From the UHGV virus genome UHGV-1373362: a DNA stretch of 64,000 nucleotides, one strand, 5' to 3'. The stretch comes from a virus. How positions within the stretch are numbered: position 1 is the first letter of the stretch; each line of letters starts with the position of its first letter. The notes under the pieces were generated by a model. The model had not been told where the DNA came from. It worked only from the letters and a program-made list of their open reading frames with translations, and did not search any database. Shown piece after piece: positions 1,485-50,252 of the stretch. The translations under genes were made by a program, and so were the position numbers.

Positions 1485-2280
1485 AGAGTCTAGTTATGGC
1501 ATGGGGGCGTTAGCCGTTATTGCGTTAGTGGTGGTAGTATTTCTAAGTTGTTTCAGCATTGACAGAATTGATTCTGGACAAACTGGAGTCATGGTCAATC
1601 TGGCAGGTAATGATAGAGGAGTAGATGATGCAAAGATTGAGACAGGTTGGGTAGTATATAACCGTTTTACCAAACAGTTATTTGAATATCCTGCATATGC
1701 TCAGATCGTGGATTACCCTCCTTTTGAAATCCAGGACATGAAGGGTACTATTTTTACAGCAGATCCAACCATTGAGTATTACATAGAACGTGATAAGGCT
1801 AAAGATGTATTTCTGAGGTATAGAAAAGACATTGAGGCTTTAGAAAATACTGCAATACTCGCAGAGGTTAAGAATGCCTACAAGGACATATCTGGAATGT
1901 ATGAAACAGACAGTCTCATTAATAATAGACCTCAATTTGAAAAGGAGGTTGAGGAATTACTAAGGACAAGACTCAGTGATAGGGGATTTACCTTTAGTAA
2001 TATCCAATCATCCGTTATGCCTAACTCTGCACTGCAAACTGCAATTGATGAAAAGAATACTGCTGTGCAAAAGGCCTTAAAGGTTGAAAATGAAAAGAAA
2101 GCTGCTATTGCTGAAGCTGAGAAAGCTGTAGCTGCTGCGAAGGGTAAAGCTGATGCTAATAGGTTATTGGAACAATCCATTACGCCTGAACTATTGCAAT
2201 TGAAAGCAATAGAGAAATGGGATGGTACGATGCCATTGTCAGTTGGTGGAGGTACTCTGCCCTTCTTGAATTTAAAATAA
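1477..2280 (+). CDS. SPFH/band-7 (prohibitin/HflK-like) membrane protein
   Basis: N-terminal TM segment, SPFH-like core, and a C-terminal Ala/Glu/Lys-rich helix (KKAAIAEAEKAVAAAKGKADANRLLEQS) typical of prohibitin/HflKC. Confidence 0.65.
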   Translation: MSRESSYGMGALAVIALVVVVFLSCFSIDRIDSGQTGVMVNLAGNDRGVDDAKIETGWVVYNRFTKQLFEYPAYAQIVDYPPFEIQDMKGTIFTADPTIEYYIERDKAKDVFLRYRKDIEALENTAILAEVKNAYKDISGMYETDSLINNRPQFEKEVEELLRTRLSDRGFTFSNIQSSVMPNSALQTAIDEKNTAVQKALKVENEKKAAIAEAEKAVAAAKGKADANRLLEQSITPELLQLKAIEKWDGTMPLSVGGGTLPFLNLK

Positions 2281-2306
2281 CTCAGTATTAAAAACTTATT
2301 AAAATT

Positions 2307-2921
2307 ATGGCAATTAACTTGCAAAAAGGTGGACGTATTGACCTTTCTAAGGAGTCCACAGCTAGTGTGTTTAGAATTGGTTTGGGCTGGGATGCAGCAC
2401 AACCTGGTAAAGAATTTGACTTGGATGCTATGGCTATTCTGCTTGGTGCTGATGGTAAAGCTGTAAGTGACGATGCAATGGCTCTGTTTGGGCAGTTGGA
2501 CGGTCCTGAAGCTATAGCTGCTACTGGTTGTATCCATCATTCAGGCGATAACCGTACTGGTGCAGGTGATGGTGATGATGAAACTATCACTATTGACACT
2601 GCTAAGGTTCCTGCCAATGTTCAGGAAATTGTAGTTCTTGTCAATATCCATGATGCCAAGAATCGTCAGCAGAACTTTGGTATGGTAAAGAATGCCAAGG
2701 TTAACCTGTATGAAGGTGCAGAAGGTAACAACGTTCTTGCCAAGTATGACCTGGAAGAAGATGCTTCTATGGATAGAGCATTGGTATTCTGCAGACTGTA
2801 TCGCAAGGATGGAGCATGGAAGTTCCAAGCTGTGAACGAAGGTAAGGGTAACTATCAGAATGTGTTACTGTGTGACATTCTGTCCAGTTATGGTATCAAC
2901 GCAGGTCCAAACAATCTGTAA
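2307..2921 (+). CDS. terD: TerD-family tellurium-resistance-like protein
   Basis: Diagnostic TerD motifs GDNRTGAGDGDDETI and a C-terminal WKF..A.N. segment; about 200 aa, as for TerD/TerE/TerZ. Confidence 0.8.
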   Translation: MAINLQKGGRIDLSKESTASVFRIGLGWDAAQPGKEFDLDAMAILLGADGKAVSDDAMALFGQLDGPEAIAATGCIHHSGDNRTGAGDGDDETITIDTAKVPANVQEIVVLVNIHDAKNRQQNFGMVKNAKVNLYEGAEGNNVLAKYDLEEDASMDRALVFCRLYRKDGAWKFQAVNEGKGNYQNVLLCDILSSYGINAGPNNL

Positions 2922-2924
2922 GCT

Positions 2925-3572
2925 ATGATAAATCTTAACAAAGACCTAGTAGCAGGAGGTCGTATCAACCTTAGTAAGGATGATAACGGCAATGCCCTTA
3001 CTCGTATCTTCTTTGGTGCTAACTGGGGAATGATCAACAAGGGTGGTGGATTTTTGGGATTTGGTAGTAGTAAGGAGAAGGTTGACTTGGATAGTTCAGC
3101 GGTATGTCTGGATGAAAATAAGAGACCCATTGAAACTATATCTTATTACCATTTACGTGCTAACAACAACTCTATCTTCCATTCTGGTGATGATAGAGGT
3201 GGTGATGAATTTGATGATGGATGTGACAATGAAACTATTACGGTAGATTTACCTAATGTAGATTCTCGTGTTCATCATATTGTCTTTATTCTCAATAATT
3301 ATACTCAACAGAAATTTGAAAAGCTCCCTTATATGGGCTTGAGAATTTATACTACTGCTAATGGTAAAATTTCCAGACGTATTAGTGATGAGGGAACTAT
3401 CTTGGCACAAGTTAAGCTAGATCCTAAATCTGATAAGTATATTGGGAAAAAGGGAATTATTCTTGGCGAGGTGTATCGTCATAACGGTGAGTGGAAGTTC
3501 AAAACAATTGATGTTACCGGAACTTGGGGTTCAATTGGAGAAATCACTAGAGAACTTCCTTCCATTATCTAA
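2925..3572 (+). CDS. TerD-family paralog
   Basis: Same domain pattern: GGRINLSKDD, HSGDDRGGDEFDDGCDNETITVDL, GEWKFKTIDV. A second TerD-like copy placed in tandem. Confidence 0.65.
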   Translation: MINLNKDLVAGGRINLSKDDNGNALTRIFFGANWGMINKGGGFLGFGSSKEKVDLDSSAVCLDENKRPIETISYYHLRANNNSIFHSGDDRGGDEFDDGCDNETITVDLPNVDSRVHHIVFILNNYTQQKFEKLPYMGLRIYTTANGKISRRISDEGTILAQVKLDPKSDKYIGKKGIILGEVYRHNGEWKFKTIDVTGTWGSIGEITRELPSII

Positions 3573-3595
3573 CAACTATTTAAAACTAAACTAAA

Positions 3596-3958
3596 ATGGA
3601 TTATCAAGAAGTATTAAAGCTCCGAGAGGAAATCTTTGCTGATGGTAAAGTAACCAAAGAGGAAGTTGAACTATTATGGAGCAAAAAGGATGAGCTTGAA
3701 GAGACATCTGCGGAATTTGGCAGTTTGTTTGCGGAGGCTGTAATGGCATGGCTGTTAGATGATGGTATTATTGATGAGGAAGAGGCTCAATATATCATCA
3801 ATAAAATTACCGAGGATGATACAATCGATGATGCCGAATTGGAACTACTTTACAGCCTGAACGATGTATATCAATCAGGTCTGTTACTTCCTAAATGTCT
3901 ATTAGAAGCATTCCCAGACTTCTTTACGGAAGACGAGGAAGAGGGGATAGAAGAGTAA
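3596..3958 (+). CDS. TerB-like acidic helical protein
   Basis: Two ADGxxxxEExxxL-type repeats (FADGKVTKEEVELLW and LDDGIIDEEEAQYIINKI) as in the TerB domain; sits directly after the TerD pair. Confidence 0.45.
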   Translation: MDYQEVLKLREEIFADGKVTKEEVELLWSKKDELEETSAEFGSLFAEAVMAWLLDDGIIDEEEAQYIINKITEDDTIDDAELELLYSLNDVYQSGLLLPKCLLEAFPDFFTEDEEEGIEE

Positions 3959-3993
3959 TTCTCTTCGTGTAATTTATAACGTATGTCGAGATT

Positions 3994-6489
3994 ATGAATA
4001 CAGTAGGATTAAGTGATAATGAAGTATTACAGAGTAGGAACCTTTATGGTTCTAACATACTAACTCCACCTAAAAGAGACCCCTGGTATATTCTTCTATT
4101 AGAGAAGTTCAAAGATCCTCTGATAGAGATCTTATGCGTTGCAGCTATAATTGCATTAATATTAGGTATAATCAAGCTAGAGTTTGAGGAACCTATAGGA
4201 ATTATTCTTGCTATATGTTTAGCTGTAGGAATGGGATTTTTGAATGAGTGGAGTGCTGCCAAGAAGTTTGATATTATGAATCAAGTATCAGACGACATTC
4301 TTGTAAAGGTTAGGCGTAGTGGTCATGTAACCCAAATACCACGGAAGGATTTAGTTGTAGGAGACATAGTAATTCTAGAGTCAGGGGAAGAGATTCCCGC
4401 TGATATAAAAATACTTGAATCTCACAATCTAAGGATTAACGAGTCTGCCCTAACAGGGGAATCCAAGGCCGTTATTAAAATGTCTATAACTGAAGGAGAG
4501 AACAATGGTACATATCCTTCAGATATGGTACTTAGGGGAACTACAATTGAAGAGGGAACAGCGACAGGTGTAGTTACAGCAGTTGGTGATAAAACTGAAA
4601 TTGGCAAAACTGCCAGACAAGCTGCTGAAATTACTGATGTTACAACCCCATTAAATAAGCAACTTAATGGTTTAGCTGAACTAATAAATAAGATTGCTTA
4701 CGGCGCCGCAACCTTTCTAATTATCTCTTTATTAGTAAAGTATTTCTTTATTGAGAAGGGGTATATAGGACAAGACTGGATGCAAATAGCGAATGATATG
4801 CTATCATGTTTAATGATTGCAGTAGCATTGATTGTAGTAGCTGTACCAGAGGGTTTACCAATGGCAGTTACATTAGCTCTAGCATATTCAATGAAAAGAA
4901 TGTCTAGGGCTAATAATCTAGTTCGTAAAATGCATGCATGTGAAACTCTTGGAGCAACTACATTAATATTGACTGATAAGACTGGGACACTTACTCAAAA
5001 TAAAATGAAAGTGGTAGACTCTAATATTACTGATGATAGTTATTTAAAATATAACATCTTAGGTAATAGTACTGCTTTTATTGAAGGGGACAAGACTATT
5101 GGAAATCCTACAGAGGGTGCCTTAATAAGGCATCTTAATGTAAGCCAAGCAGGGGTTGATATTCTTAGGGAGGAATGCAAACCTGTCTATAGAGAGGAGT
5201 TCTCCAGTAAGTCCAAATACATGCTTACAGTCATTATGCGGGGTGATAGGTATATAGGTCTAATTAAAGGAGCACCAGAAGTAGTTGAAGGATTCTGTAC
5301 TGAGGTACCACTCGATGTAGATGCTACAACTCAGCAGTATCGAGGCCGACGAGTAATTGGCTTTGCCTTTAAGGTTACTGACACTCTTGAAGATGCCGCT
5401 TCCCTTACAGGCTATAACTACAATGGTTATATGGCTATTGAAGATCCTATTAGACCTGATGTCCCTGAAGCAATTAGAGCTGCGAAGAAGGCAGGCATCA
5501 AAGTTAAAATCATCACTGGAGACAATCCAACTACAGCTATAGAGATAGCTAGGCAAGCAGGATTGAGTGATTCACCACAAGGAATGGCTGGTATTGATAT
5601 GAGGAATAAGTCGAATCCATATGATTCGGTTACAGGTATTTCTACTATTGATGTCTTTGCCAGAACGAAACCTGAAGACAAGCAAACACTGGTTACAGAG
5701 TTTCAAGCTCTAGGTGAAGTGGTGGCTATGACCGGTGATGGTACTAACGACGCCCCAGCACTTAATCATGCTGAAGTGGGTATAGCCATGAATAATGGCA
5801 CCGATGTGGCTAAAGAAGCTGCTGACATTATTCTACTCGACAATTCATTCCCCTCTATCATCTTGGGAGTAAAGTGGGGTAGAAGCTTGTATAAAAATAT
5901 ACAACACTTTATTCTATTCCAATTGACCATTAACGTAGTTGCTATATTAATTGCGTGCGTAGGTCCATTTATTGGAGTGAATTTACCCTTCACTGTAGTA
6001 CAGATGTTATGGGTAAACTTAATCATGGATACATTTGCTGCACTGGCGTTAGCTACTGAGCCAGCTAACGATGCAGTTATGGAAGAAGCACCTAGAGATC
6101 CTAAGGCATTCATTATCACTAAGAACATGTGGTGGGAAATTTTAGGTAAAGGTCTCATATTCTTCTTATTCTTAACCTGGTTGCTTATAGGCGAAAAGGT
6201 TTCACTAAGCTACTTCTTTACAATATTTGTATTGTTGCAGTGGTGGAACTTATTTAATGCTAGAGTATTTGGGCAAAAGAGAAGTATCTTTGATGGCTTA
6301 CTAAAGAATCCTGCATTTATAGGAATCTCTTTAGTTATTTTAGTAGGTCAATTCTTAATAGTGCAATTTGGTGGAGATATGTTCCGTACAGAACCTATTC
6401 CTCTAAATCATTGGGGTTTACTAATAGCAGGAACTTCAATAGTAGCTATATTTAGAGAATTGAAATATCAAATAAGCAAAATCTTTTGA
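3994..6489 (+). CDS. P-type cation-transporting ATPase (P2-type, Ca2+-ATPase-like)
   Basis: DKTGTLT phosphorylation motif, TGES-like actuator region, PEGLP in TM4, TGDN, and the GDGTNDAPAL hinge; about 8 or more TM helices. Confidence 0.9.
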   Translation: MNTVGLSDNEVLQSRNLYGSNILTPPKRDPWYILLLEKFKDPLIEILCVAAIIALILGIIKLEFEEPIGIILAICLAVGMGFLNEWSAAKKFDIMNQVSDDILVKVRRSGHVTQIPRKDLVVGDIVILESGEEIPADIKILESHNLRINESALTGESKAVIKMSITEGENNGTYPSDMVLRGTTIEEGTATGVVTAVGDKTEIGKTARQAAEITDVTTPLNKQLNGLAELINKIAYGAATFLIISLLVKYFFIEKGYIGQDWMQIANDMLSCLMIAVALIVVAVPEGLPMAVTLALAYSMKRMSRANNLVRKMHACETLGATTLILTDKTGTLTQNKMKVVDSNITDDSYLKYNILGNSTAFIEGDKTIGNPTEGALIRHLNVSQAGVDILREECKPVYREEFSSKSKYMLTVIMRGDRYIGLIKGAPEVVEGFCTEVPLDVDATTQQYRGRRVIGFAFKVTDTLEDAASLTGYNYNGYMAIEDPIRPDVPEAIRAAKKAGIKVKIITGDNPTTAIEIARQAGLSDSPQGMAGIDMRNKSNPYDSVTGISTIDVFARTKPEDKQTLVTEFQALGEVVAMTGDGTNDAPALNHAEVGIAMNNGTDVAKEAADIILLDNSFPSIILGVKWGRSLYKNIQHFILFQLTINVVAILIACVGPFIGVNLPFTVVQMLWVNLIMDTFAALALATEPANDAVMEEAPRDPKAFIITKNMWWEILGKGLIFFLFLTWLLIGEKVSLSYFFTIFVLLQWWNLFNARVFGQKRSIFDGLLKNPAFIGISLVILVGQFLIVQFGGDMFRTEPIPLNHWGLLIAGTSIVAIFRELKYQISKIF

Positions 6490-44814: not shown

Positions 44815-45013
44815 GTATGAACCATTGGCTCCGTATAATGCTAAGGAGGAGAAGGTTCCATTCAGTATAACAATATCAGGTACTGCTTGGTATGACTATT
44901 ATGGCCAGCTAGATTATGATGAAATGTATAAAGCTCTCATAGATAGATTTAGGGCCGCATTAGAAACATGTGGAGATATTGATGTATCTACAATAAACAT
45001 GTCTTTATATTAA
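44768..45013 (+). CDS. hypothetical small protein
   Basis: Overlaps the upstream gene; alternative ATG at 44789. Confidence 0.3.
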   Translation: MSLVWLKMNNLPLGAEYEPLAPYNAKEEKVPFSITISGTAWYDYYGQLDYDEMYKALIDRFRAALETCGDIDVSTINMSLY

Positions 45014-46928
45014 TGATATACTTAGTTACCAATCAGAAAATTCTTTGGGAATCTACCAGATATCAAATAGTTTCAGTAGATCAAGCTCTATCCCTATTGG
45101 GTGTACTTAGTGAAGTAGAACTTGATACCGAAACTATGGGTCTAGATCCATATACTAAGGAGTTATTAACTGTCCAGTTAGGTTGTACAGAGTTTCAAGT
45201 AGTTATTGATTGTACGTCTGTTGATATCCAACTGTTTAAACCATATCTTGAAGACCCCCAAAGAACGTTCTTAGGCTGGAATATCAAGTTTGACTTGAAG
45301 TTCCTATATCATCAAAGAATTGTTCCATTAAAGGTTTATGATGGCTATCTGGCCGAGAAGCTATTATGGTTAGGCTATCCAGCAGGTATGCATGAGATGA
45401 GCTTGAAGGCTGCCAGCATCAATTATCTAGGAGTAGATATGGATAAGTCTGTACGAGGTAAGATTATACAGACTGGACTAACAGAAGATGTTATTGTGTA
45501 TGCCGCAGGAGATGTCTCTTATCTGGGTAAGATTAGAGATAAACAACTTGTTGAATTAGAGAAGAAAGGCTTATTAAAAGCTATTGATTTTGAGAACGAG
45601 TTTGTTAAATGTTTAGCATATATAGAATATTGTGGGGCTAAGTTAGACATTGATAAGTGGAAAATCAAAATGACTACTGACCTTAATAACCTTGAGAGAT
45701 ATGAAGCAGAACTAAATGATTGGGTAGAGCGTTATTGCACAGAATACGGTGATAAGGGCTATACTATCAATCAAGTTATCCATATTGATAAATGGTATAA
45801 GTCTGAGGATGTACTCAAAGAAGAGAGAGCTAAGTTACCTCTAAATGCTGTTAGAGCACCAGAGTTTGATTCTACTGGAGCAAGTCATGACAGTGAGGCT
45901 TATGTTATTAAACAAACTGGTAACTATTGCTCTGTTAATATGCAAGGTGATTTGTTCAGCGGTTTTGATACTAAACCAAGATGTCACGTAAACTGGACTA
46001 GTTCTCAACAAGTAATCCCATTATTTGAGGAATTGGGATTGAATTTAAGAGTGTTGGATAAGAAGACCAAGCATTATAAGAAGTCTGTGGATATTAAAGT
46101 GGTAGAACCACAAGCATCTAAGAGTCCTCTAATTCCAATATATATAAAGTATAAGAAAGCTGCTATCATTGTTAATACCTTTGGTCAAAAGTTCTTAAAC
46201 TTGATAAATCCTGTAACTGGTAGAATCCATGCTAATTTCAACCAGTTAGGAACTGATACTGGTAGGTTAAGTTCAACAGAACCTAATCTTCAGAATCTAC
46301 CACACGATGCTCAAACTAGAGCGTGCTTTGTTTCCGATAAAGGTAACAGGTGGATTTCAGCTGACTATAGTGGTCAAGAGTCATATCTAATGGCATCTAT
46401 GGCTAACGATGAAGCTATGTTGGAAGAGCTAACTAATGGTAGTGGTGACTTACATAGTCTAACCGCCAAGATGGTGTTCCAACAAATTCCAAGGGATATG
46501 CCCCTAAAGGATATTAAGAAGAACTTTAAAGACCTAAGGCAGGAAGCTAAAGGTTATGAGTTCTGTTTCAATTATGGTGGTCAAGATAGTACCTTAATAA
46601 GGAATTATGGTCTCGATGCTAAAAGGGCTAAAGAAATCTATGAGAATTATATGTCTGGTTTTGCTGGATTGAAGAGGTATCAAGATTTCAGAAGAGTAGA
46701 TGTAATGCGTAAGGGTTATATCCTACTAAGTCCTATTACTGGTCATAAGGCATATATTTATGACTATGATGAACTTAAAAGACAAATGGATCTTCAATCC
46801 GAGGAGGGGTTTTGGGAGTATTACAGAGAAATGAAAAGAGATGCCCCAGAATGTGATACAGTACAGGGTGTTAGACGTTTAGCAAGACGTAAAGCGGAGT
46901 CTGAGAAGCAATCTATTAATTATCCGAT
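45013..46928 (+). CDS. family-A DNA polymerase, exon 1 (3'-5' exonuclease + polymerase motifs A and B)
   Basis: Exo I LDTETMGLDPYT, motif A DYSGQESYLMA, motif B RQEAKGYEFCFNYGG. The reading frame stops 2 codons after INYPM, before the expected QGxAAD and motif C. Confidence 0.85.
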
Positions 46929-47197
46929 GAAATGAGAGTTTGTGTCGGAGTAAAACTCCTTAAATTCGGTGGAGCCTGAAGCACAAGTCGTGAGACTAAC
47001 TGTATTGGTAATACCGAGCCAACCTAAGCAGTAATGCTTAGAAGTGTGTAGAGACTAGAATATGGATTCCTATGGGAAATAAGTAGGAAGGTAAAATTCC
47101 ACGAAAAGGGAGAATATATTATGATATTAAGATATAGTCCGAGCTACCCGAAAGGGATAGAACTAGAGGATAAAGAGCCTCTAGGATAACATAACTG
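46929..47197 (+). ncRNA. group-I-like self-splicing intron (269 nt, ORF-less) in the DNA polymerase gene
   Basis: 5' exon ends in U (…ccgaU). The intron ends in G immediately before acaagctgct. Candidate IGS gucgg (46944-48) pairs with ccgau including the U·G wobble. P2-like ggaguaaaacucc. P7-like agacua/uaguc. Locally GC-rich. Splicing restores INYPIQAAGALCFKLASIKL, matching Pol I NAPMQGTAADIIKRAM. Confidence 0.6.
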
Positions 47198-47450
47198 ACA
47201 AGCTGCTGGTGCATTGTGTTTTAAGCTAGCATCTATAAAGCTATTCAACTGGTTATTGAAGAACGGCTTGTTATTTAAGGTTAAGTATTGTATTCCAGTA
47301 CATGATGAAATTAACCTTGAAGCTCCAGATGAAATTTCAGAAGAAGTTGCAGATATATTAGTTAAATGCATGGTAAGTGCAGGTAAACCATTCTGTACAA
47401 GAGCACATTTAGGTGCTGATGTGGAGATTGGAGACCATTGGATTCATTAA
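47198..47450 (+). CDS. family-A DNA polymerase, exon 2 (motif C, C-terminus)
   Basis: After splicing the frame reads IQAAGALCFKLASIKLFNWLLKNGLLFKVKYCIPVHDEINLEAP (motif C VHDE). The track shows it as a TTG-started ORF at 47214. Confidence 0.8.
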
Positions 47451-47451
47451 T

Positions 47452-47673
47452 ATGGGTAAGTATATAGACTTAAGTTCAGTAATTGATGTAGAACCTGAAG
47501 TATGTGAGGTACTTCCTCTTATTGAAGATGATGACCTTCAATATGAATTTTGGCAGAGATTAGATGAAGGATTCTTTAAAGACTTTCTTTGTAATCACTG
47601 TAATGAGAATGACCTCAGTATAATGAAGGAAATTCTCGACGAGATAATAGAAGATTCTAAGGATGCAGACTGA
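47452..47673 (+). CDS. small acidic protein
   Basis: ATG at 47452 just after the polymerase stop. Confidence 0.35.
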   Translation: MGKYIDLSSVIDVEPEVCEVLPLIEDDDLQYEFWQRLDEGFFKDFLCNHCNENDLSIMKEILDEIIEDSKDAD

Positions 47674-48190
47674 GATTGAGAGAAAGTTCCTAACCACTAG
47701 CAGCTTGTTTAAGGAGCAGGCTGTTAGGGTTATGAATATACAGCAAGGATACATAGGGACTACAAGTAAAGGAGAAGCTAGAGTATCTATAAGAGACGAG
47801 AAAGCATGGATTATAGTCAAATCTAATGAAAGACTGTCAAGGTTGGAGTATGAAATTCCTATTCCTAAGAAGGATGCAGAAGAATTACTTAAAAGAACCT
47901 GTGGTAGGATTATTCATAAAACTCGTTATATCATTCCAGCAACATCTGGTATGTTGAAATGGGAAGTAGACGAGTTTCATGGAGAGGATGAAGGCTTAAT
48001 AATTGCTGAGATAGAGTTACCATCAGAGGATATGCCATTTGAAAAACCTCAATGGCTTGGTAAAGAAGTAACACAAGATACTACTTATTATAACTCTACA
48101 CTCTCTAAAACATCTTGGAAAGCTATTCAGAAGTCATATGCTGAAGCTAAAGCTTGGGATGATTGGAGGGATTCATTAGTAAAAGGATGA
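47663..48190 (+). CDS. CYTH-domain protein (triphosphate tunnel metalloenzyme)
   Basis: N-terminal EIERKFL signature of CYTH/CyaB-thiamine triphosphatase domains, with acidic residues along the beta-strands. About 175 aa. Confidence 0.55.
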   Translation: MQTEIERKFLTTSSLFKEQAVRVMNIQQGYIGTTSKGEARVSIRDEKAWIIVKSNERLSRLEYEIPIPKKDAEELLKRTCGRIIHKTRYIIPATSGMLKWEVDEFHGEDEGLIIAEIELPSEDMPFEKPQWLGKEVTQDTTYYNSTLSKTSWKAIQKSYAEAKAWDDWRDSLVKG

Positions 48191-48462
48191 AGTATAGGAA
48201 GAAACCAGTTATCATTGAAGCTATACAGTTTGAAGATAATTCAGACCGTATTATAGAAATTCATGAGTTTATGGGAGGTGATACTATAAGAGTAAACTAC
48301 GAAGATAAGGATAATCCTTATTTGAAGATTGAGACTCTTGAAGGTATAATGAAAGCCTCTGTTGGAGATTATATCATTAAAGGAGTGAATGGGGAGTTCT
48401 ATCCTTGCAAGCCAGATATATTTGAGAAAACTTATGAAAGAGTGATTGATGAGGCTGATTAA
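48187..48462 (+). CDS. hypothetical protein
   Basis: ATGA overlap; the track start is TTG. Confidence 0.35.
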   Translation: MKYRKKPVIIEAIQFEDNSDRIIEIHEFMGGDTIRVNYEDKDNPYLKIETLEGIMKASVGDYIIKGVNGEFYPCKPDIFEKTYERVIDEAD

Positions 48463-49417
48463 ACCGTCATTTGAAATAATTGAACAAAAGCCTGGAGTAG
48501 AAGGTGTTTATAAACAAATAGAGTTAGCAGGGAGGACTTGCTATAAGAGTTTGGATAAGATAACAGAAGATTCTGCTAAAGGATTCGTTGATAGAATGAT
48601 TAAATCAGGTCACGGTGCTATGTTAGAGCATGGTACTATATATCTTACTATGCAATATGGGGGACCCTCTAGAAAAGAGTCTGATGCTATAGAAAAATAT
48701 ACAAAAAATAAATATAGTAAATATAATCAAGACATAGATAGTAAATATTATATTACAACTAACTTAAGAGTTCTAGTAGAAAATAACTGGCTTGATGATT
48801 TACAATACTTATATGAACCTACAGAGTTTCATAAGAAGAGAATTACTGTTAGATTTGTAACAGACCAGGGTATCCTAAGAGAATTTACTAGGCACAGAAC
48901 TGCTAGTTTTGCCGTTGAGAGCACCCGTTATTGCAATTATTCTAAAGATAAATTCAATAATGAGCTTACTTTTATTCAACCCTGTTGGTTGGATGATATG
49001 AGGCTGAAACTATGTGGTCCTTATCATACTGTAATAAGAGATAGGTCACCAGAGAGTATATTTATTGCTAACTTAAATAATGCAGAGAAAGATTATTTGG
49101 ATCTAATTAACCTTGGTTGGAAACCACAACAAGCAAGAAATGTACTACCATTAGCTACTAAGTGTGAAATGATAATGACAGCCTTTGTAGATGATTGGTG
49201 GGGAGGGTATCTAGTCTTTGATAAGAGTACTGGATTATTAGACCAAATAATCCACGGAATGTTCTGGAAAGAGCTAGATAATATAGATAGAGAGAAATAT
49301 AGAATTGTTGAGAAAGGATTCTTTCCTTTAAGATGTTCTAGTGCAGCTCATCCCCAAGCGCAAGAGTTAGCTATTCCATTAAGAGAGGAGTTTCTTAAGA
49401 GAGGTTATATAAAATGA
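48449..49417 (+). CDS. thyX: flavin-dependent thymidylate synthase
   Basis: ThyX signature RHRTASFAVESTRY (RHRx7-8S). Confidence 0.8.
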   Translation: MRLIKPSFEIIEQKPGVEGVYKQIELAGRTCYKSLDKITEDSAKGFVDRMIKSGHGAMLEHGTIYLTMQYGGPSRKESDAIEKYTKNKYSKYNQDIDSKYYITTNLRVLVENNWLDDLQYLYEPTEFHKKRITVRFVTDQGILREFTRHRTASFAVESTRYCNYSKDKFNNELTFIQPCWLDDMRLKLCGPYHTVIRDRSPESIFIANLNNAEKDYLDLINLGWKPQQARNVLPLATKCEMIMTAFVDDWWGGYLVFDKSTGLLDQIIHGMFWKELDNIDREKYRIVEKGFFPLRCSSAAHPQAQELAIPLREEFLKRGYIK

Positions 49418-49565: not shown

Positions 49566-50252
49566 ATGACCGCAAATGAATACTTTGGTGACTGGATTGA
49601 TGTTATTGACAAAGAGGAACTACGTAAAGTAGTAACTTGGGTTAATAAGGTCAATTCAGCTGACCTATGTCCTTCTCCTAAGAACATCTTTAGAGCATTT
49701 AGGGCTTGCTCATTCAAGGACTGTAAGGTAGTCTTTCTTGGGCAAGACCCTTATCCTCAAAGAGGAGTAGCTACTGGAATACTATTTGGTAATTCAGAAG
49801 ATACTCAAGAGGATTATCTATCTCCTTCACTTAAAGTAGTTAAAGAAGCTGCTATTAATTATGAAATTCCCCACAACCTTATAGAGTTTGACAATACGTT
49901 AGAGTCTTGGGCTAAGCAAGGGATATTAATGATTAATACAGCTCTAACTTGTGAAGTAGGTAGAGTTGGGGCACACTTTGACATATGGAAACCATTTGTA
50001 TCTAAGTTGATTCACAACATGAGCTATAAAGATGGGGGTATGATTTATGTTTTATTTGGCAGCCAGGCTGGATTATTTAAGAATGATATAGTGAATAGCT
50101 TAAAGACAATCGAAGTATATCATCCAGCATATTATGCTAGGACTGGTAAGAAGATGCCTAGTAGTGTATTTACTGACATCAATCAGGTATTGAAGCAACA
50201 GTATAACTATCAAATAGAATTTTATAAGGAGACGGAATATGGAACGTGCTAA
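49566..50252 (+). CDS. ung: uracil-DNA glycosylase (family 1-like)
   Basis: VVFLGQDPYP water-activating motif (GQDPY) and a C-terminal VYHPAY...-like segment; about 228 aa. Confidence 0.65.
   Translation: MTANEYFGDWIDVIDKEELRKVVTWVNKVNSADLCPSPKNIFRAFRACSFKDCKVVFLGQDPYPQRGVATGILFGNSEDTQEDYLSPSLKVVKEAAINYEIPHNLIEFDNTLESWAKQGILMINTALTCEVGRVGAHFDIWKPFVSKLIHNMSYKDGGMIYVLFGSQAGLFKNDIVNSLKTIEVYHPAYYARTGKKMPSSVFTDINQVLKQQYNYQIEFYKETEYGTC

What the first reader, a model, noticed from the sequence alone, without database searches (positions are those of the whole stretch)
46929..47197. ORF-less 269-nt group-I-like intron splitting the DNA polymerase gene at the QGxAAD region
The family-A polymerase frame stops two codons after INYPM, and the missing QAAGA...VHDE (motif C) part lies 269 nt downstream in a segment the ORF track only finds with a TTG start. 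The hallmarks of a minimal group I intron are present. The 5' exon ends in U and the intron ends in G. The 5' splice site can pair with an internal guide gucgg including the U·G wobble. There is a ggaguaaaacucc hairpin and agacua...uaguc elements, and GC content is locally elevated. Joining at 46928/47198 gives INYPIQAAGALCFKLASIKL, colinear with E. coli Pol I INAPMQGTAADIIKRAM.
Basis: partly seen in the sequence, partly recalled or inferred. Interest (0 to 1): 0.7.

Follow-up and report, generated by a model that had tools for sequence, protein, structure and literature searches.

The report
ORF-less group I intron in PolA
The 269 bases that interrupt this gut (crAss-like) phage's DNA polymerase gene are a genuine self-splicing group I intron that has no homing-endonuclease gene; this is a well-known kind of phage element, so the finding is correct but ordinary.

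Summary
Window 46929-47197 is a 269-nt group I intron. It splits a family-A DNA polymerase gene (exon 1 45013-46928, exon 2 47198-47450) of a crAss-like (Steigviridae-like) phage.

- **Rfam:** RF00028 matches locally at 43.6 bits, E 6.9e-10. This is below the gathering score of 50.
- **Fold:** I tested P1, P3-P9.1 and P10 on 11 related introns. 95% of cells pair, and 38 of 76 pairs change on both sides. Slid controls give 35-41% and 4-12.
- **Junction:** Joining 46928/47198 gives a 722-aa protein. It is gapless and 95% identical to uninterrupted 722-aa alleles in the same 90% cluster, all reading INYPIQAAGA.
- **Relatives:** About 28 other crAss-like contigs carry the intron at this exact site, 27 with an HNH-type endonuclease ORF in the P8 loop. 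Only the window and one IMG/VR contig lack it, which most likely reflects ORF loss.
The GGAG...CUCC "hairpin" is not P2; CUCC is the 5' strand of P3. The GC rise is unremarkable.
- **Site:** The insertion lies in the codon for E. coli M848. This differs from the three sites (674, 676, 881) listed in the one 2012 paper I consulted.

Verdict: a new member of a known kind. Splicing itself is inferred, not shown.

The parts
45013..46928 (+). Exon 1 of the family-A DNA polymerase gene (3'-5' exonuclease domain plus most of the polymerase domain). It ends after the second base (AU) of an Ile codon.
   Evidence: ORF list. Pfam DNA_pol_A_exo1 and DNA_pol_A match the spliced product. It is colinear with uninterrupted alleles.
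46929..47197 (+). Group I intron, 269 nt, with no endonuclease ORF. Its first base is G and its last base is the omega-G.
   Evidence: RF00028 at 43.6 bits, E 6.9e-10. Covariation test on 11 relatives. The boundaries are fixed to the base by intronless alleles. 269 is not a multiple of 3, and all three frames carry stops.
46933..46935 (+). In-frame UGA two codons into the intron. It ends translation of unspliced RNA, giving the 640-aa product that gene callers report.
46924..46948 (+). P1. The 5' exon CCGAU (46924-28) pairs with the internal guide GUCGG (46944-48), with U46928.G46944 at the splice site. The loop carries GUUUGU (46938-43), which is the intron strand of P10.
   Evidence: Helix 1: 98% of cells paired, 3 of 5 pairs with changes on both sides. 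The changes come from the two relatives inserted 7 nt downstream.
47198..47203 (+). P10 partner. The first six bases of exon 2 (ACAAGC) pair with GUUUGU at 46938-43.
   Evidence: Helix 2. Column pair 19/309 is U.G, C-G, G-C or U-A in different phages, so the guide tracks the exon.
46956..46961 (+). P3 5' strand CUCCUU. It pairs with AGGGAG at 47107-47112.
   Evidence: Helix 3: 100% paired, 4 of 6 pairs with changes on both sides. The rival hairpin is not supported.
46966..47017 (+). P4 (46966-71 with 47012-17). P5 (46974-76 with 47007-09). A P5a/P5b extension (46981-83 with 47001-03; 46986-89 with 46994-97) is capped by a GUGA loop.
   Evidence: P4 is invariant. P5 has 2 pairs that change on both sides. 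The P5a/b extension is present only in the window's subclade, which is 4 of the 11 sequences.
47018..47047 (+). P6 (47018-19 with 47046-47) and P6a hairpin CUAAGCA-GUAA-UGCUUAG (47024-30 with 47035-41).
   Evidence: Helix 8: all 7 pairs change on both sides.
47051..47057 (+). P7 5' strand G[A]GACUA with a bulged A. It pairs with UAGUCC at 47135-47140, which is the expected guanosine-binding helix.
   Evidence: helix 9: 100% paired, one G-C to A-U exchange. The G-binding role is inferred from what is established for group I introns.
47058..47099 (+). Peripheral domain between P7 and P3', which I name P7.1/P7.1a. The outer helix is GAAU/AUUC (47058-61 with 47096-99). The inner hairpin is UCCUA/UAGGA (47068-72 with 47084-88).
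   Evidence: Helices 10 and 11 (3 of 4 and 2 of 5 pairs change on both sides). The helix names are my assignment.
47107..47112 (+). P3 3' strand AGGGAG.
   Evidence: helix 3.
47113..47128 (+). P8, a minimal hairpin AAUAU-AUUAUG-AUAUU. In sibling introns the P8 loop holds a 670-730-nt insert with the endonuclease ORF.
   Evidence: helix 12. In the closest ORF-bearing sibling (L009) P8 is AAUAUAUU/AAUAUAUU. The window keeps all 8 nt of the 5' strand but only 5 nt of the 3' strand.
47129..47140 (+). J8/7 (AAGAUA) plus the P7 3' strand (UAGUCC). This is the most conserved core motif.
   Evidence: It matches the RF00028 consensus AAGAUAUAGUC. It is invariant in the alignment. It is the only exact copy in the window.
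47144..47160 (+). P9. CUACCC (47144-49) pairs with GGG[A]UAG (47154-60). The loop is GAAA (47150-53) and A47157 is bulged.
   Evidence: helix 13. Window versus L010 shows two compensatory pairs: 47146/47158 A-U to G-C and 47147/47156 C-G to U-A.
47163..47184 (+). P9.1 hairpin CUAGAGG-AUAAAGAG-CCUCUAG.
   Evidence: Helix 14: 100% paired, 5 of 7 pairs change on both sides.
47121..47189 (+). A 22-codon mini-ORF (MILRYSPSYPKGIELEDKEPLG*). It is in the same frame and position as the last 21 codons of the siblings' endonuclease ORF, which overlap P8'-P7'-P9-P9.1. It is probably a remnant and not a gene.
   Evidence: tblastn of the L009 endonuclease finds only residues 225-245 in the window (47124-47186, 86% identity). 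ORF of L009.
47197..47197 (+). Omega-G, the last base of the intron.
   Evidence: The UG|ACA junction is invariant in all 11 aligned introns.
47198..47450 (+). Exon 2 of the polymerase gene. It holds the Q849-equivalent, motif C (PVHDE) and the C-terminus, and has no start codon of its own before the conserved QAAGA.

Best explanation
Bases 46929-47197 are a self-splicing group I intron inside the polA gene of a crAss-like phage.

**Inferred mechanism, from what is established for group I introns**
1. In the pre-mRNA, the 5' exon end CCGAU pairs with the guide GUCGG to form P1, with a U.G wobble at the splice site.
2. The P3-P9 core folds.
3. An exogenous guanosine bound in P7 attacks after U46928.
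4. The omega-G (47197) replaces it in the pocket, while exon 2 (ACAAGC) is held by GUUUGU as P10.
5. The freed 3' OH of exon 1 attacks after G47197.
6. The result is an mRNA for a 722-aa polymerase reading ...INYPIQAAGA....

Unspliced RNA yields only a 640-aa product that ends at UGA 46933-35.

**History, also inferred**
The intron belongs to a lineage that occupies this exact site in many crAss-like phages. In that lineage it normally carries an HNH/EndoVII-type homing endonuclease gene in the P8 loop. Here that gene has most likely been deleted. What remains is a compact ribozyme that is still under selection to splice, because the polymerase depends on it.

**What is shown and what is not**
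- Shown: the sequence, the fold supported by covariation, the exact junction, and the existence of empty-site and ORF-bearing alleles.
- Inferred: catalysis itself and the direction of the ORF change.
For: - **Family match.** RF00028 aligns end to end (model 1-253) at 43.6 bits, E 6.9e-10. The RNA folds with z = -4.15.
- **Covariation.** I tested a named group I fold (P1, P10, P3, P4, P5, P5a/b, P6, P6a, P7, P7.1, P7.1a, P8, P9, P9.1) on 11 distinct related introns.
  - 95.0% of cells pair.
  - 38 of 76 pairs change on both sides.
  - 0 of 500 shuffles reach any of the five measures.
  - Sliding the 3' partners by 1-3 columns drops pairing to 35-41% and two-sided changes to 4-12.
- **Guide tracks the exon.** P10 covaries with exon sequence: G.U, G-C, C-G and A-U at one position.
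- **Junction.**
  - Four intronless Steigviridae polymerases all read QSINYPIQ.
  - The spliced product gives one uninterrupted Pfam DNA_pol_A match over residues 326-720.
  - The 90% cluster of the exon-1 protein (2010 members) contains many 722-aa uninterrupted alleles.
  - One of them, P0003, is 95% identical to the predicted spliced protein with no gap and the same length.
  - Its DNA is colinear with window exon 1 plus exon 2 to the base.
- **Not an artefact.** The identical 269 nt occur in independent ENA and Logan assemblies.
- **Relatives.** About 28 other crAss-like contigs have an intron at the identical site (tatccgat|G...G|acaa). Of these, 27 are 912-999 nt long with an endonuclease ORF, and one other is ORF-less.
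- **Continued selection on structure.** Between the two ORF-less copies, 4 of 8 differences are two compensatory pairs in P9.
Against: - No RNA or biochemical data are available, so splicing is inferred.
- The Rfam score is below the curated gathering score (43.6 against 50). Whole-window scans report nothing.
- Some helices in the window's copy are imperfect. P9 needs a bulged A or a C.A mismatch, and P5 is only 3 bp with a G.U.
- The structure I tested was derived partly from these same sequences, which inflates the contrast with the slid controls for 'cells paired'. It does not inflate the count of two-sided changes.
- The direction of the ORF event (loss versus never gained) rests on parsimony and on an asymmetric P8 remnant only.
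Confidence: 0.93

Rival explanations
1. The polymerase is naturally split. The 640-aa N-terminal product and a separately translated C-terminal piece (from TTG 47214) assemble without RNA splicing, and the 269 nt are just an intergenic spacer.
For: Gene callers in public assemblies call only the 640-aa ORF. An ORF with a TTG start exists at 47214.
Against: - The spacer has a covariation-supported group I fold whose guide sequences pair with both exon ends.
- The conserved QAAGA, including the Q849 equivalent, lies upstream of the TTG and would be lost.
- Close relatives encode the same protein as one 722-aa chain with no extra residues.
Confidence: 0.03
2. The intron is a decaying relic that no longer splices, so polA is a pseudogene in this phage. 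Replication would rely on another polymerase or on co-infecting helpers.
For: The homing endonuclease gene is gone, which is the stage before intron loss in the homing cycle. The Rfam score is below threshold. Only 64 kb of the genome could be inspected, so a second polymerase cannot be excluded.
Against: - All core helices and the J8/7 and P7 motifs are intact.
- Differences between the two ORF-less copies include two compensatory pairs.
- Both exons remain open and 95% identical to uninterrupted alleles.
- The same allele occurs on 8 contigs from several samples.
Confidence: 0.03
3. The interruption is an assembly or sequencing artefact, such as a chimeric join with another phage's intron.
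For: The window is metagenomic sequence, and the intron's 3' third resembles introns in unrelated phage genes.
Against: - The identical intron sits in the same context in independent ENA and Logan assemblies and in an IMG/VR contig.
- Its guide sequences match these exons specifically.
Confidence: 0.005
4. The gap is crossed at the level of translation (bypassing or frameshifting) or of protein (an intein).
For: None beyond the fact that the coding sequence is interrupted.
Against: 269 is not a multiple of 3, and every frame of the insert has several stops of all three kinds. No tRNA or suppressor gene is present in the window. No intein-like ORF exists.
Confidence: 0.005

Closest known systems
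The interrupted DNA polymerase I of crAss-like phage cr116_1 (MT774389 / NC_055882, Steigviridae) and about 27 IMG/VR crAss-like contigs
   Same: - Same gene and the identical insertion point (TATCCGAT|G...G|ACAA).
- Same guide GUCGG and the same core helices.
- The first 50 nt are 88% identical.
   Different: - Those introns are 912-999 nt long. They carry a 229-245-aa HNH/EndoVII-type endonuclease ORF in the P8 loop that runs on through P7', P9 and P9.1. The window's copy has a 6-nt P8 loop instead.
- The GenBank records annotate two 'DNA polymerase I' CDS plus an 'endonuclease', not an intron.
[quoted passage not shown]
   Same: - Group I introns in a highly conserved stretch of a family-A polymerase gene.
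- No P2, and extra helices between P7 and P3'.
- Associated with HNH endonucleases (PMC3428280).
   Different: - The insertion site is different. It lies inside the codon equivalent to E. coli M848, just before Q849.
- There is no detectable nucleotide similarity at blastn level.
- In the T7-like and cyanophage cases the ORF sits in P6a, whereas in this lineage it sits in P8 (PMC3428280).
- This copy has no ORF.
[quoted passage not shown] 2021, PMC7886860)
   Same: Same virus order and the same kind of element, interrupting core replication and structural genes.
   Different: - Those were found by searching for endonuclease domains. [quoted passage not shown]
- This one is in PolA of a Steigviridae-like (Beta-group) phage. 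Having no ORF, it is invisible to that search method.
ORF-less or endonuclease-defective phage group I introns (for example T4 nrdB with the defunct I-TevIII), and 'collaborative homing' of ORF-less introns
   Same: A ribozyme retained without a working endonuclease of its own. Mobility is possible only in trans (PMC2790892 and PMC3984707; from the literature, not tested here).
   Different: No free-standing homologue of the sibling endonuclease was found in the 64-kb window. Trans-mobilisation here is speculation.

Membership tests
Group I intron (Rfam RF00028) | Score at or above the curated gathering threshold of RF00028 | tested here: not met
   43.6 bits against a gathering score of 50. 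The local E-value is 6.9e-10 and the alignment is full length, model 1-253. Whole-window scans return nothing. A second, independent group I intron in relative L117 also scores only 33.1 bits, so this model under-scores the lineage.
Group I intron | P1 formed by the 5' exon end and an internal guide sequence, with a U.G pair at the 5' splice site | tested here: met
   CCGAU with GUCGG. U.G is present in 10 of 11 sequences, and the helix is kept by changes on both sides in introns at a neighbouring site (helix 1).
Group I intron | Terminal guanosine (omega-G) at the 3' end, and P10 between the guide and the 3' exon | tested here: met
   G47197. UG|ACA is invariant. P10 is 88% paired, with G.U, G-C, C-G and A-U exchanges that track exon differences (helix 2).
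Group I intron | Conserved core: the P4-P6 domain and the P3-P7-P8-P9 domain with the P3/P7 pseudoknot | tested here: met
   P3, P4/P5, P6, P7 and P8 are 100% paired, P6a 93.5% and P9 91%. Two-sided changes occur in P3 (4 of 6), P6a (7 of 7), P8 (2 of 5), P9 (6 of 7) and P9.1 (5 of 7). When P3 and P7 were wrongly paired as nested helices, pairing fell to 23-32%.
Group I intron | Guanosine-dependent self-splicing (two transesterifications, G added to the intron 5' end) | not testable with these tools
   Needs in vitro transcription and splicing, or RNA from infected cells.
Group I intron | Precise excision restores the host reading frame | tested here: met
   The joined exons give a 722-aa PolA that is gapless against uninterrupted 722-aa alleles at 95% identity.
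Subgroup IA2 (the usual phage type) | No P2; two hairpins P7.1 and P7.2, joined by G-U-A, between P7 and P3' | tested here: inconclusive
- No P2.
- A covarying domain does lie between P7 and P3'. It looks like an outer helix enclosing one hairpin, followed by GGUAAA, and not two side-by-side hairpins.
- I did not compare it with a curated IA2 model.
Mobile (homing) group I intron | An intron-encoded homing endonuclease | tested here: not met
   No ORF of 30 aa or more on the coding strand inside the intron. Only the last 21 codons of the siblings' endonuclease remain, where they overlap the ribozyme core.
Intein, or translational recoding | An in-frame, stop-free insert translated with the host protein | tested here: not met
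   269 nt equals 3n+2, and there are stops in all frames.

The most novel reading that the evidence does not exclude
Within one species-level population of a human-gut crAss-like phage, three polA alleles co-circulate:
- an empty site carrying synonymous changes that hug the insertion point (AATTACCCTAT|TCAAGC),
- the intron with its endonuclease gene,
- the endonuclease-less intron.

The endonuclease-less ribozyme may be moving between genetic backgrounds by recombination or by homing in trans. Its first 214 nt are identical in two phages whose adjacent 300 nt of exon differ by 15%. If so, this is a natural, samplable snapshot of the homing cycle (gain, endonuclease loss, resistant empty site) in the most abundant phage order of the human gut. 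It could affect competition between co-infecting strains.
Probability: 0.3. Interest if true: 0.45.

Novelty: new member of a known kind. Interest (0 to 1): 0.3.

Why it matters
**Annotation.**
- Automatic gene calls in public assemblies report a truncated 640-aa polymerase and miss the exon that holds the Q849 equivalent and motif C.
- Rfam at default settings does not flag the intron.
- The earlier survey of crAss-like phages found introns through their endonuclease domains (PMC7886860), and that approach cannot see ORF-less copies.
- Recognising the intron restores a complete, ordinary PolA to this phage. It also provides an alignment from which a lineage-specific model could be built to find siblings.

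**Biology.**
- The finding adds a PolA insertion site: the M848 codon, with a sister lineage 7 nt downstream at G850|T851. The 2012 comparison I read lists 674, 676 and 881.
- Empty, endonuclease-bearing and endonuclease-less alleles occur among close relatives, which could be used to study intron turnover in gut phages.

None of this changes what is understood about group I introns.

Tried and rejected
- **Rfam scans of the whole window.** Both the gathering scan and the E <= 0.1 scan found nothing. Only a 551-nt local scan recovered RF00028. The negative whole-window result is a filter effect, not evidence of absence.
- **Megablast of the gene against GenBank phages.** No match. Relatives had to be found by protein search and by short DNA motifs.
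- **First structure string.** I wrote P3 and P7 with the same bracket type, so they were mis-paired as nested helices (23% and 32% paired). I redid the test with P7 as a pseudoknot.
- **Automatic detection of P8.** It picked wrong stems twice because AGACUA and AAUAU recur. I fixed three sequences by hand.
Rejected.
- **Pfam on the sibling endonucleases.** Only sub-threshold zinc-ribbon hits. PHROGs identified them.
- **Other copies in the window.** A search with the two core motifs found none beyond chance.
- **Free-standing endonuclease homologue in the window.** None found.
- **JGI metagenome scan for the exact ORF-less P8 junction.** Zero hits.
- **Look-up of the spliced protein's encoding contigs.** The exact spliced sequence is not in the protein collection, but 95%-identical uninterrupted alleles are.
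- **The I-BasI paper (PMC162337).** Not held in the library.
- **Covariance model.** I did not build one. The 312-column alignment looked likely to exceed the calibration time limit, so I did not attempt it, and the pair counts already answered the question.

Full report
**What is in the sequence.**
- The + strand ORF that starts at 45013 encodes a family-A DNA polymerase. It reads ...AESEKQSINYPMK and stops at TGA 46933-35.
- The remaining polymerase sequence (QAAGALCFKLASIKLF...CIPVHDEINLEAP...HWIH*) is in another frame from 47199 to 47450. The ORF lister reports it only from a TTG at 47214.
- Removing 46929-47197 (269 nt, which is 3n+2, with stops in all three frames) gives a 2169-nt ORF of 722 codons reading INYPIQAAGALCF.
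- Base 46928 is U and base 47197 is G.
- The intron's GC is 39.4% against 35.9% for the window. Exon segments reach 42.5%, so composition is not a useful signal here.

**The host.**
- The spliced protein finds crAss-like phages of the family Steigviridae. These include MT835470 at 57%, cr111_1 at 55%, and IAS virus and crAss001 at about 50%. All align as single uninterrupted pieces over 100% of the query.
- IMG/VR contig IMGVR_UViG_3300045988_023872 (L010) is about 94% identical at the DNA level.
- The exact exon-1 product occurs on 8 public contigs. Independent ENA (ERZ27260751) and Logan (ERR1301631) assemblies carry the identical 269 nt. The interruption is therefore not an assembly artefact.

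**Is it a group I intron?**
- Whole-window Rfam scans are empty. A local scan of 551 nt gives RF00028 over its whole length (model 1-253) at 43.6 bits, E 6.9e-10. That is below the gathering score of 50.
- That alignment places P3, P4, P5, P6, the AGACUA strand of P7, the J8/7-P7' motif AAGAUAUAGUC, and P9 with a GAAA loop.
- The RNA folds better than all 200 shuffles, z = -4.15.
- To go beyond one model score I collected relatives.
  - An 18-mer from the guide region found five crAss-like contigs.
The ribozyme therefore belongs to a very common phage intron family.
- tblastn with the exon ends showed that about 28 other crAss-like polA loci are interrupted at exactly the same place (tatccgat|G...G|acaa). 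Their inserts are 912-999 nt, with one other insert of 268 nt. Two more loci (L015, L223) carry a related intron 7 nt downstream.

**Structure test.**
- I cut the ORF-bearing P8 loops out of the long introns and aligned 11 distinct sequences, each with 8 nt of exon on either side (A2).
- I then wrote a full group I fold from the window's sequence.
- With P7 written as a pseudoknot and P10 as a separate bracket type:
  - 95.0% of 779 cells form standard pairs.
  - 38 of 76 pairs show changes on both sides.
  - No shuffle out of 500 reaches any of the five measures.
  - Sliding the 3' partners by 1-3 columns gives 35-41% paired and 4-12 two-sided changes.
- Two-sided changes by helix: P1 3 of 5, P10 3 of 6, P3 4 of 6, P5 2 of 3, P6a 7 of 7, P7 1 of 6, P7.1 3 of 4, P7.1a 2 of 5, P8 2 of 5, P9 6 of 7, P9.1 5 of 7.
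- P4 never varies, so it says nothing either way.
- P10 is informative. The fifth pair is U.G, C-G, G-C or U-A according to the exon sequence of each phage, so the guide follows its exon.
- When I mistakenly wrote P3 and P7 as nested helices, those two fell to 23% and 32% paired. This acts as an accidental negative control.
CUCC belongs to P3 and there is no P2.

**The junction.**
- Four intronless Steigviridae genes read QSINYPIQ with an invariant NYPIQ.
- The 90%-identity cluster containing the window's 640-aa product has 2010 members. Of the 15 listed, twelve are 722 aa, one is 720 aa and two are 640 aa.
- One 722-aa member (P0003, on 14 contigs) is 95% identical to the predicted spliced protein with no gaps and the same length. 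The C-terminal 83 residues after INYPI are identical to the window's exon 2 translation.
- At the DNA level its gene is colinear with window exon 1 plus exon 2, so the boundaries are fixed to the base.
- The spliced product gives one continuous Pfam DNA_pol_A match, residues 326-720.
- Against E. coli Pol I the insertion lies inside the codon aligned with M848 in I844-NAPMQGTAAD, after its second base and immediately before Q849.

**History of this copy.**
- In siblings the P8 loop holds a 229-245-aa ORF that matches PHROG endonuclease, endonuclease VII and HNH families at E about 1e-33. Its last roughly 21 codons run through P8', J8/7, P7', P9 and P9.1.
- The window contains only that tail (47124-47186, 86% identical), as a 22-codon mini-ORF. 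No other homologue is present.
- The closest ORF-bearing sibling (L009/L012, 995 nt) is 94% identical over the first 196 nt. Its P8 is AAUAUAUU/AAUAUAUU. The window keeps the full 8-nt 5' strand but only 5 nt of the 3' strand, around a 6-nt loop.
- ORF-bearing copies are present in several diverged sublineages, and ORF-less copies in only two genomes. Together with the P8 asymmetry, this favours deletion of the endonuclease gene over an ancestral ORF-less state. This is inference.
- The two ORF-less copies differ at 8 positions, all beyond nt 214. Four of them are two compensatory pairs in P9: 47146/47158 and 47147/47156. The ribozyme has therefore stayed under structural selection.
- L010 is a mosaic. 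Its intron nt 1-214 equal the window's. Its intron 3' end and exons equal L009's (100% and about 98.5%). The window's last 300 nt of exon 1 are only 84.7% identical to either.

**Mechanism.** I infer the standard two-step guanosine-initiated pathway, as set out in the best explanation. Unspliced message terminates at UGA 46933-35.

**Rivals.**
- A split polymerase, a dead intron in a pseudogene, an assembly artefact, and recoding or an intein are each disfavoured. The evidence is the fold, the guide-exon pairing, the intact and conserved exons, the independent assemblies, and the 3n+2 length with stops in every frame.
- Together they hold about 7% of my belief.

**Comparison with what is known.**
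- Group I introns in phage PolA genes have been described since SPO1. A 2012 comparison lists three sites: 674 (SPO1, SP82, Bastille, Pf-WMP3), 676 (phiL7) and 881 (PhiI, W31) (PMC3428280). The M848 site is not among them. I did not survey later literature exhaustively.
[quoted passage not shown] I found no paper in the held library describing an ORF-less intron in Steigviridae PolA.
- GenBank records such as cr116_1 already show the interrupted gene, annotated as two polymerase CDS plus an endonuclease.
- The element is therefore a new member of a known kind, at a site not in the 2012 list.

**Verdict.**
- Interest is low to moderate, at 0.3.
- Its value lies in annotation and in a tidy population-level picture of intron turnover.

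Noticed in passing
L238-L240 positions ~2900-2930 (intronless alleles), compared with window 46918-46928 + 47198-47203: Uninterrupted alleles from the same 90% protein cluster read AATTACCCTAT|TCAAGC, where the window's exons read AATTATCCGAT|ACAAGC. That is three synonymous differences within 7 nt of the insertion point, at bases that form P1/P10 and probably the endonuclease target. They could be homing-resistant empty sites or co-converted flanks.
   Followed up: partly
L010 1669-1936 and flanks, compared with window 46629-47450: The other ORF-less copy is a mosaic. Its intron nt 1-214 are identical to the window's. Its intron 3' end and both exon flanks match the ORF-bearing L009 (100% and about 98.5%). 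The window's last 300 nt of exon 1 are only 84.7% identical to either, which suggests recombination within or around the intron.
   Followed up: partly
L015 (intron in reverse orientation of the locus, ~2380-3180) and L223: A related intron with the same core motifs and the same kind of endonuclease ORF in P8 sits 7 nt downstream in PolA (NAPVQG|TAA, equivalent to E. coli G850|T851). Its own guide sequence is adapted to that site.
   Followed up: partly
L117 5141-6062: This crAss-like polA has a second intron of about 920 nt, in addition to the one at the M848 site. It lies in motif C between the D and E codons of VHDE (cac gat|aaacg...aataatg|gaa). RF00028 gives 33.1 bits, E 4e-6. The site is close to the published 881 site of the T7-like phages.
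   Followed up: partly
window 46929-47197, compared with the whole window: Rfam cmscan of the full 64-kb window returns nothing at either the gathering threshold or E <= 0.1. The same intron scores E 6.9e-10 when only 551 nt are submitted. The speed filters, not the model, lose it.
   Followed up: yes
L236/L237 4924-5439 (= window 46936-47451): Public gene calls for these assemblies leave exon 2 uncalled and report a 640-aa 'DNA polymerase I-like protein'. The truncated form has propagated into protein databases.
   Followed up: no
L002 (bajarodcaudo virus 1, PQ006092) 1855-5942; L003 (Clostridium phage phiCP13O) 2000-3067: The window intron's 3' module (P7'-P9-P9.1) is 80-93% identical to sequences in unrelated phages and genes.
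- One is a major capsid gene cut into at least four pieces, with 'intron associated endonuclease' ORFs between them.
- Another lies just upstream of the second half of a tail tape-measure gene in C. perfringens phages.
The same ribozyme family has colonised many genes.
   Followed up: no
contig lengths: Contigs carrying this polymerase are either about 93 kb or about 178-188 kb. The larger size is close to twice the smaller, so the large ones may be assembled dimers or concatemers of a ~93-kb genome and not a larger phage.
   Followed up: no
window 47663-48190, 48446-49417, 49566-50252: Downstream of polA are a CYTH-domain protein, a flavin-dependent thymidylate synthase (Thy1/ThyX; RHRxxS motif visible) and a UDG-family protein. 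Upstream are a PNKP-like kinase/phosphatase and a poly(A) polymerase/CCA-adding family protein (Pfam tags). This looks like an ordinary replication and nucleotide-metabolism module.
   Followed up: no
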